NCBI GenBank assembly: GCA_046757525.1
Contig: JBHHYI010000011.1
Span: 1 to 46,000, forward strand
Direction: 5' to 3'
From: a bacterium
Lineage (GTDB): Bacteria > Zhuqueibacterota > Zhuqueibacteria > Oceanimicrobiales > Oceanimicrobiaceae
DNA length: 46,000 bases
Below, piece after piece: positions 28,158 to 40,100 of the stretch (its first letter is position 1; every line of letters begins with the position of its first letter). Position numbers: made by a program.

Positions 28158-31100
28158 TCATAGCGAGGATTTTGGCCCGTGGTTTGTGCCTATCAAGAGG
28201 AAAGGGGACAGCAATCTCAATCCGGATGATCGCTCTTGTTGATGAATCTCTTCAGATAGGATCCAAATTTGTTGATGGGAGAGTTGGTCTCTTTGCCGTT
28301 CAGGACCTGAGGCAGGACGCTTTCTGTGGATTCAGCCTCCGGCTTCTTTGACTGGGTCAATTCGGCCTTCAGCACCTTTTCAAAGTTTCTGGAAAGCGCC
28401 TGGATGACTTCTTCGTCCGCGCGGGAGCCTGCCAATTGATTGTTTAAGTATTTCAAGGATTGATCCAACAGATCCAAAATATATTCCGGCACCGGTTCAG
28501 TTTCCAACAATTTTTCGTACGTTAGTTTCTTGAGCGAATCGATAATCAGAATCAGATTCTGGTCCTTGGAGCTCTTAACCGACGTCTGCAAGGCGTCGCA
28601 AGCCTGGCGAATTTCCTGAACTGCTTCCACCGACAATGGGACCATCTGCAGTTCATAGACTGCCTGTTCTATGGTATCCAGGTATCTCTTGTCCTCTGAG
28701 GTGAGGCTTTGTCTTTCAACCACGGTGGCTTCCTGCCGGCGCCCTTGTGAATGGCTGGGATCATTAACCGGGCTCGACAAGACGGTGGTCACCGGCAGAC
28801 GTTCGGGATCGTCAGATTTCTTCGCCTCTGATCCCGCGGAACCCGCTAAGGTCATAATGGAATCGAGCTCCCGAATATCGAACAGATCATCGATTTCGTT
28901 GCCATTTTCCCTGCCGGAAGTCCTGGTCTTTCCATCGCCGTCGTCGAGGAATCGAAACGGCAGCTCCAACTGTCTGGCAAACAAGCGATCAAATTTCCTA
29001 CCTAATCTGTCGGTGCAGGCCTTGATTTTTTTTTGTCGAATTTCTACCTGTTCGTCGAGTTTCTCCATATTCATCTGCAACTCAATGCGCTCTTCCATTT
29101 CCAGCACTTTGTGGATGGCACCAGCAGCAATCTGTACTTTTGAAATAAAGTCCTTGTCCAACGTGTACTGTTGCTGCAAAATCCGGCCGGCGGCAGACTT
29201 GATTTTTTCGGCGATGTTTTCAACCCCCTCATACCCGTGAATCATTGCCAGGTCTTCAATAGACTGGGCTGCATTTTTGAGTTTGCTTAGCCCCTGGCTC
29301 TTGCCTTCACCATTTGCCAGTCCTGACAAAGACAAATCGATTTGCTGGAGATGCCTGCGGACCTCGTCAAAATAATAGTACCTTAGTGAAGTTCTACCGT
29401 CAGAAGACTGTGGAACTGGCAATGAATCTGGGGGGCCTTCGACCATATATATTTTCATACCGAATAGCCTAAAAGCTTGTTAGAACAACTTGTTGATGTA
29501 TTTTACCGCTTCGTCCACATTCGAGAATTCAGATGATCCGTTGTCTGAGAGACTTCTTTCTGCAACCGCCGACACCACGTCCGCTGGTTGCGCCTCCTCG
29601 CCCCTCAGGCGCGTCTTGTTGTCGTAAGGAACGCTTGCAGAGCTTACCGCATCTGCTGTGCTCAGCGGCAGACCGGTTTCTCGTCGCCTGCTGCTCTTAG
29701 ACTTGTTGTTGCTACCCGACGCGTCAAACAGTTGTAGAATGCCGCTCACCTTGCGCTTGAGCTCAGCCGCAGTGCTCTTCGACTTCTCATCTTCGTTGGT
29801 CAGCCCTGAGACGGTGGACGGCAGCAACCTGAACAACTCGATGACCCCTTCGGACAAGTCAAATTCGCCCTGAACCGCTTTCTCAACGATGGTGGCCATG
29901 GGGCTCATCAGCTCTGCAATGCTTTGGTAGGAAAACAGTTCTGCCGAACTGTTGATCGACGCCACAGCATTCTTTATCTCGCGCAAGTACCGCTCATTGC
30001 CGGAACGATTCCCCACAGCCAGCCCGCGAACAGCCTCCTCCAAAACATAGAGATCTGCCCGGGTCTCCTCCAGAAATATCTCTGAGAACACCCTGCCGCC
30101 CTGTTTTCGCGAGGTGGTTTCAGTCGTCGCTTTCTCAACGGATGCGGGCGCCTCTACTTCCCTGGCCGGCGCGATCGTCTCTGTCTGGTTATCCTGGCTC
30201 GCCCCCCCAACTTGGGCGACTTCTTGTTTCTTGATGGCCATGTCGATTTCAACTGCCGAACGCTTGGTTGTTTGCAAGCAGGTTGCAATGAGCATCACCC
30301 GTATGGAATCTTTCAGCGACTCATCAAGACGGGCTCCCCAGATGATCTTGGCAGAAGGGTCTAACCGTTGCGAAACGACTTGCATGACCGTCCTTGCTGA
30401 TTTCAGTGACATCTCCTGGCCACCCGTGATGTTGATGAGTGCGCTTCTGGCTCCGGTAATGTCCACATCTAACAACGGATTTTGCAGGGCTTTTTCCGCA
30501 GCTACTTTGGCAACATCTTCCGGCGGGCTGTCGCCATCGCTCTCTCCGAGTCCAATCATGGCCATGCCACCATTCTGCATGATGGTGCGCACATCGGCAA
30601 AATCCAAATTCACCAACCCTTTTTCAGTCACCAGCTCGGTTATGCCCTTGACGGCATTCACGAGAATCTCATCGGCGACTTTGAAGGCTGCGCCTAAGGG
30701 CATATCCGGGACCATTTCCAGAAGCCGGTCGTTCTGCACCACGATGACCGTATCCACTTTAGATCGCAGTTGCTCCAGACCTTTCTGAGCGTTCTCCCAG
30801 CGAATGATGCCCTCCTCGGTAAACGGCAGCGTGACCACCGCAATGGTCAAAGCGCCACTTCTCTTGGCTATTTCAGCAATAATCGGTGCGGAGCCCGTGC
30901 CGGTGCCACCTCCCAATCCACAAGTGATGAAAACCAAATCGCTGTTGGCAATCATCGCCTCTATTTCTGCTGCGTTTTCTCTTGCGGAGTCTTCCCCGAT
31001 CTTGGGATCGCTGCCGGCACCCAGACCATTGGTAATATCTTTGCCGATAAGGACCTTGTGGTCAGCCGTGGCAAACAACAGGTCCTGCGCATCGGTGTTA

Positions 31101-37100: not shown

Positions 37101-40100
37101 CGGTTTGATGCCTTCGCCGGTATCGGTGAGATCGACCCGGGCATAAAGGGCCTGCTTGTTTTTTACCGGAAACGGTCGCCCCCTGCGGTCCACACGCCTT
37201 ATGGTAGTGATTTCCGGGCGGGCATCCAGGCGCAATTCACCGCCTTGTGGCATGGCATCCAGCGCATTTAAAACCAGGTTGATGAATATTTGTTGGATTT
37301 GGTAAAAATCCACATAAATCAACGGAAGTTCTGGATCGTAGTTCTCATAGAACTGAACCGATTGGCCCCGCAGCCGATTATCTAACAAAGCCACCGCCTC
37401 CTGCACGATTTCCTGCAAACGGTGATACTTGCGATCCGGTTGCCTTGGCTTGGCATAAGAAAAAATCGTCTTCAACAGATCGTCCATGCGGTTGACCTGA
37501 CGCACGATTCGGGACAAATACTCGCGCCTGGAGTCATCCGGTTCGATTTCTTCTTCCAGGGTCTGCGCAATGGTTTTAATGCCGGCCAACGGATTCCTTA
37601 TTTCGTGCGCAATGCCGGAAGCCAAAACGCCCATGGACGCCAGGCGATCCATGCGCTGCACTTCTGCTTGCATCTGCTTGATCTGGGTAATGTCTCGAAA
37701 TGAAATGATCGTCCCCACCCGATGATTCAGGTTGTCCATGCGTGGCGTTACGGTAAATCCCACGTAAACTCGCTGGCCATCATTTGCTGTCAGCCGCATC
37801 TCCCGATTTAACAGCGACTGTTCCGGGTCGTCAAAATTCGGGATCAATCTTCTGCATTCCTCTTCAGGAAAAATACTTTCTAACGATTTGCCTAAAACTT
37901 CCTCCAGAGTGAATCCCAACAACTCTTCAGCATTGTTATTGAACGAGGTAATCTTACGCTCCAGGTCCAGAGTAATTAAGCCGGAGCCAATACTTTGAAT
38001 GATACTTTCGTTAAAGTTTTGCAGGTCGATGATCTCTTGTTCCAGCTCCTTGCGTTCAGTGATATTGCGAGCAATGCCCACACAGCCAACGACCTGTCCT
38101 TTCTCGAAAATAGGATTGATGTTCGTGGAAAGATAGAGGGTTCCCCCGTCGTGGTTCACCCGGACTTCAAAAATGCTGGACCTACCCTGCAACGTCTTGA
38201 AAAAGTTCGTCTTCGCATTTTCACAGTCCGCAGGAACGATCAAATCAAAGAAGCTGCGTCCCAACCACTCCTCCCGTTCGCCCCCGGTGAGGTCAGGCAG
38301 CCGTCTGTTGATAAACGAGAAGTTCCCCTCCGGATTTAAGGTGAAAATCAAATCGCTGGCGTTTTCTATCAAATCTTGATATTTGTATTCGGTGCGTTTG
38401 ACCTGCTGCTCCTGTTCGCGATTCTTCGTCCGCAACTGGTGCAGGATGAACACGTTGTCGATGACATTCAGCAGTTCCTTGTTACCAAAAGGTTTCACCA
38501 GGAAGGCACTCAGACCCATGTTAAAGAGCGCTTCCCGTTCCACCTCATCTTCAGATTTGGCCGTGAGCATAATAATAGGAATTTCGCGCACGAGCTTGTA
38601 TTTGGGATCGCTGACCATTGTTTGCATGAAATCAAAGCCGTTCATCTGAGGCATCATGTAATCCAATATGATTAAATGCGGCTTCCTGGCCAAAAGCAGC
38701 TGCAAACCGGTCTCTCCAGAAGTAGCCGGAATGAACATGTAGCCTGCTTTTCGTAAAACAATGCCTGCAATTTCCAACATGTCGGGATCGTCGTCTACAA
38801 ACAAGATTGCTTTATTCCTGGCCATCTTCATCAGACCACAGGTCGTTTCATTTGAGGCGATACGGGTAAGGTAAAATAGAATTTGCTGCCTTCATTGGGC
38901 CTGGAAGTGACGCCCAATTCGCCTCCGTGCAATTCAATTAATTTCTTAGAAAGACTCAAACCGACTCCGACACCGCCATAAATACGCGTTGGCGAGCTAT
39001 CCCCTTGCCTGAATTCATGGAAGATTTTTTCCTGGTCATCAACTGGGATGCCGATACCCGTGTCGGACACATAGAATTTGACCGCAGACGGGGCGCGTTC
39101 CGCACCTACTTCCACGCTGCCGTCGTGAGTAAACTTGATCGCGTTGCCAACCAAAATCACCAGTACCTGGTAAATGCGTCGAAAGTCAACATACAAGAGG
39201 GGCAAGTTTTTGTCACAATGCCGCTTCAGGGCCAGGCCGTTGTTCTTGGCAATGGGCGCAACGGTGCCAAGCGTCGCATCGATCAAATCGTAAGGCGAGC
39301 AAAACTCATATTCGAGTTTCAACTGGTTGCTCTTGATTTTTGAGAGGTCTAATATTTTTTGCACCAGTTCCAGCAGGTTGGAAGCACAGCTTTTTATGTT
39401 TTCCAGGGCAGAAAGCTGGCGTTCGTTGAGTATGCCGTACACGCTGTCCAGCAACAATTCAGAATAGCCCAGGATGCCATTCAATGGGGTGCGAAATTCG
39501 TGGCTGATGTTAGAAACGAATTCCGTTTGCACCCGGGTGCTTTCTTCCAGGCGCATGTTTTTCGCCTGGATCTCAATGCTCAACTGTTTGATTTTCGCGT
39601 CCCGCTCTTCCAGTATCTTCTGAGCTTTTTTTCTTTCGCGAATGTCCCGCGAAATCACCTCGAAACCCACCAGTTTCTTGTGCTTCAGAACGGGTGAAAT
39701 ACTCAGCTCAACGGGAATCAACGCATTGCCTTTTGTTTTGATTTCCAACTCTAACTGCTTATCCCAACGCAAGTTCTTATGTTTTCTAAGCTGACTTCTC
39801 ATGATCCTGTCACCGTCTTCTGGCAGGATGTAGCTGATGTGTTTGTGCAAGAGTTCGCCTCTTGAATATCCAGTGAGTTCTTCAGCCTTGCGGTTTACGA
39901 AGGTAAACAGCCCATTCTTATCGTGAAAGGAGATGGCATCCCGCGCATTCTCAACAAACTCGATGAAGCGCCGGGTGGCGGCGTCTAACAAAGTCGACCT
40001 GTTTTTGGCCAACAAGGCGTCTTGTACGATCTGTGGCAGAGCCTCCAGGTTTTCAGTCGATTTGACGATGTAGTCCAAAGCTCCGCACTTCATGGCCTTG

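What a model noticed while it worked through the whole genome (the two positions that open the first line are those of the whole stretch)
28217..38831. Second, archaeal-FtsZ1-like FtsZ fused to an Hpt-like bundle in a phosphorelay/ParA operon
Besides its canonical dcw-cluster FtsZ (g02300, C78:15885-17063), this bacterium encodes a second FtsZ (g00690, C11:29480-31255, 591 aa) whose GTPase core is much closer to archaeal FtsZ1 than to any bacterial FtsZ and which carries a C-terminal four-helix (Hpt/CheA-P1-like) bundle plus a conserved C-terminal helix. It sits in an operon conserved across the phylum Zhuqueibacterota with a ParA/Soj-like ATPase, two response regulators (one with a PATAN/DUF4388 domain), a 662-aa protein made of three Hpt/CheA-P1-like bundles, and a sigma54 two-component pair: a candidate signal-controlled, non-divisome FtsZ cytoskeleton.
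Evidence so far: Swiss-Prot top hits shown are archaeal FtsZ1 (57.9% id to M. jannaschii over 321 aa; call 30). PDB phmmer: M. jannaschii FtsZ1 397 bits vs <=279 bits for every bacterial FtsZ. Best 80 of 601 genome_contigs matches: 7 bacterial MAGs (KSB1, Calditrichaceae, 'Cytophagia', Bacteroidota) then 73 archaea at 53-62% id. ML tree of 97 rows (19 paralogues, 39 archaeal FtsZ1, 8 FtsZ2, 31 bacterial FtsZ): bacteria split from paralogues+archaea by a 0.82 branch, SH-aLRT 100; paralogues one clade (100) nested among FtsZ1 (89). 97 of 167 phylum genomes (G000 included; my count of rows with best E<=1e-100, i.e. a paralogue-type match; one of them, G162, is an unpublished genome) hold the paralogue, nearly a [...]
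(Added by a program. Inside this text positions count along the whole contig: contig position 1 is position 1 of the stretch shown here. "Call 12" and the like, gene names such as g00115 and contig names such as C1 are that model's own, and its searches are not shown. The text may have been shortened before it was handed on; [...] marks where a part breaks off. The agent that wrote the report below was given it as the finding of a first reader that could run no searches.)

Follow-up and report, generated by a model that had tools for sequence, protein, structure and literature searches.

The report
Inducible archaeal-type second FtsZ operon
Many bacteria of the uncultured KSB1 lineage carry, besides their normal cell-division protein FtsZ, a second copy of archaeal type that is fused to a disabled signalling domain and sits behind a promoter of a kind that needs a signal to switch on, which suggests a cytoskeleton built only for a special cell state.

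Summary
Confirmed, with corrections. Window 29480-31255(-) encodes an intact FtsZ with an archaeal FtsZ1-type core (13 of 15 diagnostic columns FtsZ1-like, 0 bacterial) fused to a five-helix CheA-P1 fold lacking the phospho-histidine (0 of 41). 97 of 167 phylum genomes hold it. Position inside the archaeal tree is unresolved (AU p=0.37). Corrections: the 662-aa protein has two P1-like domains, not three; the 413-aa gene downstream has two more; spread outside the phylum is not shown. New here: the operon starts at a conserved sigma54 promoter (35332-35346; 32 of 33 loci) with a palindromic enhancer-like site (35529-35545; 34 of 34) beside an NtrC-family activator; 20 of 22 full operons of relatives add a membrane-anchored lytic transglycosylase (absent here); the ParA keeps Soj DNA-binding arginines; SepF is absent phylum-wide. 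Best reading (0.45): a signal-induced second FtsZ polymer, organised through histidine-less P1 docking domains, for a conditional wall-remodelling or division event. Partners and output are inferred. The scan reported this FtsZ family before on other DNA; no paper found.

The parts
36930..38831 (-). Hybrid sensor kinase REC-PAS-PAS-HisKA-HATPase, 633 aa; likely cognate kinase of the activator
   Evidence: Pfam; directly upstream of the activator in relatives of both classes
35553..36923 (-). NtrC-family sigma54 activator (REC-AAA-HTH), 456 aa; Walker A/B and GAFTGA-like loop (GAFTDA) present
   Evidence: Pfam; motifs; directly upstream of the operon in 30 of 40 loci (my count)
35529..35545 (.). 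Palindromic enhancer-like site (TGGTC-N7-GACCA), 199 nt upstream of the -24 element
   Evidence: Best-scoring site of the genome under a matrix seeded on it; leave-one-out hit in 34 of 34 loci that have the promoter; position
35332..35346 (-). sigma54 -24/-12 promoter-like site, 48 nt before the REC-DUF4388 start
   Evidence: 1 mismatch to the recalled consensus; 19 of 33 loci at <=1 mismatch, 0 of 33 on the other strand, shuffle mean 0.04; 32 of 33 with a relaxed pattern; rpoN in G000
34615..35283 (-). Response regulator REC-DUF4388 (PATAN-like), 222 aa; phospho-Asp57 and an unusual helix-1 motif are invariant
   Evidence: Pfam; alignment of 33; one orthologue in 68 of 113 genomes
33763..34590 (-). 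Orphan Soj-like ParA ATPase, 275 aa, no ParB beside it; deviant Walker A intact; DNA-binding Arg positions kept
   Evidence: AAA_31 188 bits; 47% to the ParAB-locus copy on C97; motifs in 20 rows
33323..33766 (-). Single-domain response regulator, 147 aa; variable, found in a minority of relatives' loci
   Evidence: Pfam; synteny
31313..33301 (-). g662: unassigned N-terminal helical domain (11-135), two His-less P1-like domains (268-372, 520-643), long acidic linkers, conserved LPGEDD-type motif near 461-477
   Evidence: Model; VIA Z 16.9 rmsd 2.7 over 124 and Z 14.8 rmsd 2.5 over 105 to CheA P1; hhalign; His column; alignment
29480..31255 (-). Second FtsZ, 591 aa: FtsZ1-type GTPase core (8-330), His-less CheA-P1 five-helix domain (384-518), amphipathic C-terminal helix (580-590)
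28217..29458 (-). g413: two further His-less P1-like domains (31-120, 249-338); last gene of the likely operon
   Evidence: HMM from the FtsZ bundle, iE 4e-10 and 8e-5; 0 of 25 domains with His; synteny

Best explanation
A conditional, second FtsZ system. The hybrid kinase activates the adjacent NtrC-family activator, which binds the palindrome and opens the sigma54 promoter (sites shown by conservation; binding inferred), so the six genes from REC-DUF4388 to g413 are made only on a signal. The FtsZ1-type core binds GTP and polymerises (motifs intact; activity inferred). It has lost the archaeal tail and the phylum has no SepF; instead it carries a histidine-less P1 domain that cannot take phosphate and serves as a docking surface (loss shown; docking inferred). 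g662 and g413 carry four more such domains on long linkers and form a multivalent scaffold with it, possibly gated by the receiver proteins (inferred). The Soj-like ParA rides the nucleoid and positions the assembly (residues shown; role by analogy to orphan ParA systems such as PomZ), and in most relatives a membrane-anchored lytic transglycosylase opens the wall there (gene shown; link inferred). Output: a special division or wall-remodelling event in a particular cell state, apart from routine division by the dcw FtsZ. My odds by step: sigma54 control 0.9, GTP polymer 0.85, no phosphotransfer 0.9, archaeal donor 0.75, receiver docking on the bundle 0.4, wall or division output 0.5.
For: Promoter and palindrome conserved across both classes and kept in front of parA in the two loci that lack the REC-DUF4388 gene. 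GTPase motifs and T7 loop intact in 41 rows. P1 fold Z 16.6 rmsd 2.5 over 124; His in 0 of 41, 0 of 25 and 1 of 42 domains against 9 of 11 CheA-like controls. SepF 0 of 167 over cut-off, 7 of 14 control genomes ring. g662 orthologues in 43 of 113 genomes, 42 of them with the second FtsZ (my count); G147 keeps REC and g662 but has lost parA, transglycosylase, ftsZ and g413 from the locus together. REC orthologue in 61 of 68 genomes with and 7 of 45 without the second FtsZ (my count; G158 unpublished, 6 of 44 without it). Transglycosylase gene before g662 in 20 of 22 loci, with an N-terminal hydrophobic segment. Soj-type arginines in 20 of 20 and 19 of 20 rows. The gene is kept independently of FliG and CheW.
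Against: No expression, localisation or biochemistry. The distant class (13 of 13 loci) keeps only kinases, activator, REC and FtsZ, so ParA, transglycosylase, g662 and g413 are not obligatory; five loci of family f15 have the FtsZ alone in unrelated contexts, with no site at <=1 mismatch directly upstream. Seven genomes hold the FtsZ without the REC orthologue and seven the reverse. This genome itself lacks the transglycosylase at the locus, and that family has paralogues in a genome without the second FtsZ. sigma54 promoters are common in this genome (68 intergenic pattern hits), so sigma54 control alone does not mean development. Kin are not independent in any of these counts.
Confidence: 0.45

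Rival explanations
1. Accessory subunit or brake of the ordinary division ring: the induced second FtsZ co-assembles with, or competes against, the dcw FtsZ and ties division to the signalling state, as two FtsZs share one ring in Haloferax and PatA acts on the Anabaena divisome.
For: All genomes examined in detail keep a dcw FtsZ too; a DUF4388/PATAN regulator heads the operon and PatA interacts with division factors (PMC7380572, abstract); FtsZ1 and FtsZ2 co-localise in H. volcanii (PMC8178401, passage); orphan ParA plus scaffolds position the ring in Myxococcus (listing); no MinC found in G000.
Against: Only 43% identity to its own dcw FtsZ; no bacterial-type C-terminal peptide; whole families (f4, f7, f8, f9) do without it.
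Confidence: 0.25
2. Non-division landmark: the filament and the P1-repeat proteins form a signalling hub that places receiver proteins or a surface machine (pili, flagellum, secretion), with the transglycosylase opening the wall for it, like the non-phosphorylated Xpt domains of ChpA and the hub protein FimL.
For: The bundles derive from CheA P1; ChpA's non-phosphorylated Xpt domains are proposed as scaffolds (PMC12632253, passages); a similar palindrome lies before a second activator and a sigma28-like gene; G000 has flagellin, FliG and PilM-like genes.
Against: No tie to FliG (f4 3 of 3 with FliG and no second FtsZ; f15 0 of 12 with FliG) or to CheW (none in G000; 4 of 14 in f12). Pili were not profiled across the phylum.
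Confidence: 0.2
3. True phosphorelay on a filament: the bundles accept phosphate (on another residue) and pass it between kinases and receivers.
For: Kinases and receivers with intact phospho-Asp are adjacent; Ser or Thr occupies the site in 16 of 41 FtsZ rows.
Against: The site is not conserved (K 13, S 13, I 4, T 3, others); no invariant His in the alignment of 83.
Confidence: 0.05
4. Binning contamination from an archaeon, or a decaying relic.
For: Archaeal-type sequence; fragmented genome (438 contigs); one relative's copy is split by a stop (L075, G132).
Against: Bacterial neighbours (guaB, gcvPB, sigma54 activator), even GC, one clade in both classes, conserved synteny and promoter, intact motifs.
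Confidence: 0.02

Closest known systems
Archaeal FtsZ1 (PDB 1FSZ/1W58; M. smithii and H. volcanii FtsZ1)
   Same: Core sequence, N-terminal helix, 13 of 15 columns diagnostic against bacteria and 14 of 14 against FtsZ2, intact GTPase motifs.
   Different: In bacteria that keep a dcw FtsZ; no GID tail, no SepF, not beside translation genes; fused P1 domain; sigma54 promoter.
CheA P1 five-helix phosphotransfer domain (1I5N, 3KYJ, 1TQG); non-phosphorylated Xpt domains of ChpA; FimL (His-less nature recalled)
   Same: Fold (Z 14.8-16.9) and profile similarity to CheA-like proteins of the same phylum; repeated domains on linkers beside receiver proteins.
   Different: Histidine lost in 107 of 108 domains scored; no kinase, CheW or receptor in the operon; fused to a tubulin-family GTPase.
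PomXYZ of Myxococcus xanthus (orphan ParA plus scaffold positions FtsZ)
   Same: Soj-like ParA without ParB, two large partly disordered partner proteins, an FtsZ.
   Different: Acts with its own second FtsZ; partners are built of P1-like domains; inducible promoter; homology to PomX/PomY not tested.
PatA of Anabaena (PATAN-REC regulator acting on the divisome during differentiation)
   Same: DUF4388/PATAN plus receiver regulator linked to FtsZ.
   Different: Domain order reversed (recalled for PatA); DUF4388 is missing in the distant class; PatA works on the ordinary divisome.
Bacterial second FtsZ copies outside the dcw cluster (CPR, Bipolaricaulota; PMC9871819)
   Same: Extra copy outside dcw, in a conserved locus.
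   Different: Those are described as duplicates of bacterial FtsZ; that paper reports no notable archaea-bacteria transfer of ftsZ.

Membership tests
FtsZ (TIGR00065) | Score over curated cut-off; tubulin signature, T1-T7 motifs, FtsZ fold | tested here: met
   407 bits vs 295; motifs in 41 rows; Z 37.8 rmsd 2.6 over 307 to 2vaw
Bacterial divisome FtsZ | In the dcw cluster, bacterial C-terminal peptide, bacterial clade | tested here: not met
   dcw copy is on C78; tails; bacterial clade 100/99 excludes it
Archaeal FtsZ1 | FtsZ1-type core residues | tested here: met
   13 of 15 and 14 of 14 diagnostic columns; path 1.56 to FtsZ1, 1.72 FtsZ2, 2.09 bacteria; labels of unnamed rows come from the tree
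Archaeal FtsZ1 | Nested in the archaeal FtsZ1 clade | tested here: inconclusive
   Inner nodes 71/62-83/63, FtsZ1 not one clade; AU p=0.371; second AU test unfinished
Archaeal FtsZ1 | GID-type C-terminal tail bound by SepF (PMC8178401) | tested here: not met
   GID in 0 of 40 tails; archaeal control is loose, G[IL]D in 7 of 19; SepF 0 of 167
CheA P1 / HPt | Five-helix P1 fold | tested here: met
   (on predicted models)
CheA P1 / HPt | Phospho-accepting histidine | tested here: not met
   0 of 41, 0 of 25, 1 of 42; controls 9 of 11
sigma54-dependent operon | -24/-12 element, upstream palindrome, activator with GAFTGA-like loop, rpoN | tested here: met
   (sequence level only)
sigma54-dependent operon | Transcription start and RpoN dependence | not testable with these tools
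   Needs RNA or a reporter
Orphan-ParA positioning systems (PomXYZ type) | Soj-like ATPase with DNA-binding arginines and no ParB | tested here: met
   (which arginines bind DNA is recalled from Soj; aligned to the genome's own ParAB copy)
Orphan-ParA positioning systems (PomXYZ type) | Partner that stimulates the ATPase; cargo positioned in the cell | not testable with these tools
   Needs biochemistry and imaging
Orphan-ParA positioning systems (PomXYZ type) | Homology of g662/g413 to PomX/PomY | not tested
   No direct comparison made; no Pfam or NCBIfam family at cut-off for either

The most novel reading that the evidence does not exclude
The KSB1 ancestor captured an archaeal FtsZ1, replaced its SepF anchor with a dead CheA-P1 domain, and placed it in a sigma54 to sigma28 differentiation cascade, where it builds its own nucleoid-positioned, wall-cutting machine for a special division or cell-type change that runs apart from the ordinary Z ring.
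Probability: 0.25. Interest if true: 0.9.

Novelty: new variant of a known kind. Interest (0 to 1): 0.76.

Why it matters
The published family tree reports no notable ftsZ transfer between archaea and bacteria; here more than half of the genomes of a bacterial phylum hold an FtsZ1-type protein, which is either such a transfer or a deep third branch and bears on the root of the FtsZ family. It also gives a testable case of a cytoskeletal polymer under sigma54 control and joined to a pseudo-phosphotransfer domain, and predicts an undescribed conditional cell state in an uncultured, widespread lineage. The proteins are soluble and the promoter is short, so most steps can be tested in vitro or in E. 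coli.

Tried and rejected
Complex prediction of the FtsZ bundle (384-512) with the receiver domain gave no answer, scores 0.07 and 0.03 against a mark of 0.32, controls not folded; not evidence either way. No RNA holder was listed for the operon; not evidence. AU test of paralogues plus FtsZ1 did not finish. A third P1-like domain in g662 was not found by HMM, VIA or hhalign; the Atlas gave no named family for it, though one feature neighbour carries Hpt in 16% of members. A third tubulin gene in genomes with three matches: not found, 2 matches each in 4 of 5 genomes. Links to flagella and chemotaxis: rejected as obligatory. sigma70 promoter and terminator scan at chance level. The C-terminal helix as a universal membrane anchor: amphipathic in close relatives (moment 0.7-0.9) but absent from the distant class, no transmembrane segment in the window's proteins. 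Whether a transglycosylase paralogue of G000 is the relocated operon copy: two fall in other clades, one unresolved. Foldseek on the g662 model gave no hit at E<=0.001, though CheA P1 entries led the natural proteins.

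
Full report
Observation. Six genes run on the minus strand from 35283 to 28217 with gaps of -4 to 57 bases, and a 269-base gap separates them from the sigma54 activator and hybrid kinase upstream. 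The 591-aa ORF at 29480-31255 scores 407 bits on TIGR00065. G000 has two tubulin-family genes; the other lies with ftsQ and ftsA on C78 and is 43% identical over the core. Against solved structures the best rows are the FtsZ homolog 1 entries at 397.5 bits, then 9v7v at 330 (organism not shown), then 278.8 or less. In the phylum search 97 of 167 genomes have a match at E<=1e-100 (my count; G162 and G158 are unpublished; 96 of 165 without them). Families f4, f6 to f10 have none.

Origin. From 238 FtsZ cores I chose 76 rows for a mixture-model tree: 14 paralogues, 30 FtsZ1, 10 FtsZ2, 22 bacterial. Most reference rows are unnamed; their labels come from clade membership, anchored on named haloarchaeal, Thermoplasmata, Asgard, Methanobrevibacter and Altiarchaeum records. 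Bacteria are one side at 100/99 with a stem of about 0.5, paralogues one clade at 100/98, FtsZ2 one at 100/99. FtsZ1 is not one clade and the nodes placing the paralogues among FtsZ1 are weak (71/62 to 83/63). Holding paralogues beside bacteria costs 5.4 log units, AU p=0.371, so a deep branch is not excluded. Columns tell the same type: where FtsZ1 and bacterial consensus differ, paralogues follow FtsZ1 in 13 of 15 and bacteria in 0; against FtsZ2, 14 of 14 follow FtsZ1. So the protein is FtsZ1-type; an archaeal donor is likely but not proven. Spread outside the phylum was not shown.

The tail. The model (83 rows, pLDDT 83.6, pTM 0.69) gives the FtsZ core, a five-helix domain 384-518, a disordered linker and a last helix 580-590. 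Residues 386-511 match CheA P1 at Z 16.6, rmsd 2.5 over 124. An HMM of this domain finds, in the G000 ORF set, only two copies in g662 and two in g413 besides itself. The g662 model matches CheA P1 twice; its N-terminal domain does not align with the bundle (0.7%), so 'three bundles' is two. The g662 profile also hits long ORFs beside CheW genes. In one HMM column these CheA-like controls have His in 9 of 11 domains, against 0 of 41 FtsZ, 0 of 25 g413 and 1 of 42 g662 domains. GTPase motifs, including the T7 loop, are intact in 41 rows. GID, the archaeal tail motif bound by SepF (PMC8178401, passages), is in 0 of 40 tails, and SepF passes its cut-off in 0 of 167 genomes.

Operon forms. Of 40 loci that I fetched (of 96 relatives with the gene), 22 have the long form with g662, 13 (distant class) have only kinases, activator, REC and FtsZ, and 5 (family f15) have the FtsZ alone. 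In 20 of the 22 a gene of about 230 aa precedes g662; two were scanned and are SLT lytic transglycosylases, the rest share the motifs and have an N-terminal hydrophobic segment. G000 lacks it at this site and has three paralogues elsewhere; the family also occurs in G085, which has no second FtsZ. The ParA has no ParB beside it and keeps Walker motifs and the two Soj-type arginines in 20 of 20 and 19 of 20 rows, with Lys in the window's second position. Among 113 genomes at least 90% complete, g662 orthologues (E<1e-30) are in 43, of which 42 have the second FtsZ; the REC orthologue is in 61 of 68 with and 7 of 45 without. FliG and CheW do not track it. Kin are not independent in these counts.

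Regulation, new here. A search with the recalled sigma54 consensus gave 67 window matches at up to 2 mismatches against 54 expected, so no excess overall, but one of the two 1-mismatch sites lies at 35332-35346, 48 bases before the first gene. With the same fixed consensus 19 of 33 loci have a site at <=1 mismatch before the REC gene, 0 of 33 on the other strand, shuffle mean 0.04, and 0 before seven other gene sets. A relaxed pattern, chosen after seeing these, finds 32 of 33. The two loci without the REC-DUF4388 gene have the site before parA. A palindrome at 35529-35545 has a counterpart 123-216 bases upstream of the promoter in 34 of 34 loci by leave-one-out score against simple shuffles (the matrix was seeded on the window's site). 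rpoN is present and the activator has Walker motifs and a GAFTDA loop. The next best promoter-linked hit in G000 precedes a second activator followed by a sigma factor with regions 2, 3 and 4 that I call sigma28-like from recall; a similar site at 102-116 bases recurs in all 10 of 16 orthologous loci where the promoter pattern was found. It may be a downstream target or that activator's own site.

Mechanism. Shown at sequence level: sigma54-type control sites, intact FtsZ1-type core, P1 fold without His, loss of the SepF link, Soj-like orphan ParA, wall hydrolase in most long operons. Inferred: induction on a signal, polymerisation, docking through the dead P1 domains, nucleoid-guided positioning, local wall opening. 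I give 0.45 to a conditional division or wall-remodelling machine, 0.25 to an accessory of the ordinary ring, 0.2 to a non-division signalling hub, 0.05 to true phosphotransfer and 0.02 to artefact. The minimal form, REC plus FtsZ behind the same promoter, shows that the conserved core is the regulated FtsZ-P1 fusion; the rest is lineage-dependent.

What is known. Papers seen: PMC9871819, parts 1-2 of 6 of the text, which reports no notable ftsZ transfer between archaea and bacteria; PMC8178401 and PMC12632253, passages; PMC7380572, abstract; PMC11683472, passages, with 0 occurrences of FtsZ; PomXYZ and Chlamydia sigma54 papers, search listings only. No supplements were read. Searches for FtsZ with KSB1, FtsZ1 phylogeny and transfer, Zhuqueibacterota, second archaeal-like copy, FtsZ-Hpt fusion and FtsZ with Calditrich listed no paper whose title or abstract start describes this protein; the library lacks most subscription papers. 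Databases name it cell division protein FtsZ, and the Atlas holds an automatically named FtsZ/Hpt cluster of 65. This scan noted the family twice on other genomes; those notes are not independent support, and their lines shown do not mention the promoter, enhancer or transglycosylase.

Verdict. Real, widespread in its phylum, undescribed in the papers searched. A new variant of a known kind: a new FtsZ1-type subfamily in a new regulatory setting. Interest 0.76.

Noticed in passing
window:45059-45075 and 45281-45297: Two more high-scoring copies of the palindrome (20.3 and 18.6, second and fourth best in the genome) upstream of gcvPB, at the head of the gene run that ends in the kinase and activator; possible autoregulation.
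   Followed up: partly
G000:C1:90818-94200 (L154): sigma54 site with a similar palindrome before a second activator, a sigma28-like factor and an anti-sigma-like gene; orthologues also occur in genomes without a FliG orthologue (G055, G059, G065).
   Followed up: partly
window:35553-44996: gcvPB, a REC-GGDEF cyclase and a HAMP-PAS kinase stay linked to the kinase-activator pair in both classes, hinting at c-di-GMP input.
   Followed up: no
G000 whole genome: Flagellins and FliG are present but no CheW match was found in this 97% complete assembly.
   Followed up: no
G083: No FtsZ/tubulin match in a genome listed as 97% complete in about 40 contigs; assembly gap or a true loss.
   Followed up: partly
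L031-L035, L114-L117: Thermoplasmata with tandem ftsZ1 duplicates near rpL10 plus a third FtsZ1-clade copy elsewhere.
   Followed up: no
P0128, P0129: Altiarchaeum proteins made of two FtsZ cores in one chain, both in the FtsZ2 clade.
   Followed up: no
L050, L051, L074: In one genus of family f15 the second FtsZ, with a longer linker, sits inside a glycosyltransferase/heparinase-like polysaccharide cluster beside a TPR protein.
   Followed up: no
L075 (G132): The second FtsZ is split by one stop between core and bundle; real split or sequence error not determined.
   Followed up: no
L134 (G145): A CheA-like protein with four P1-type domains, two with His and two with Gln at the site: a possible source type for the His-less repeats.
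   Followed up: no
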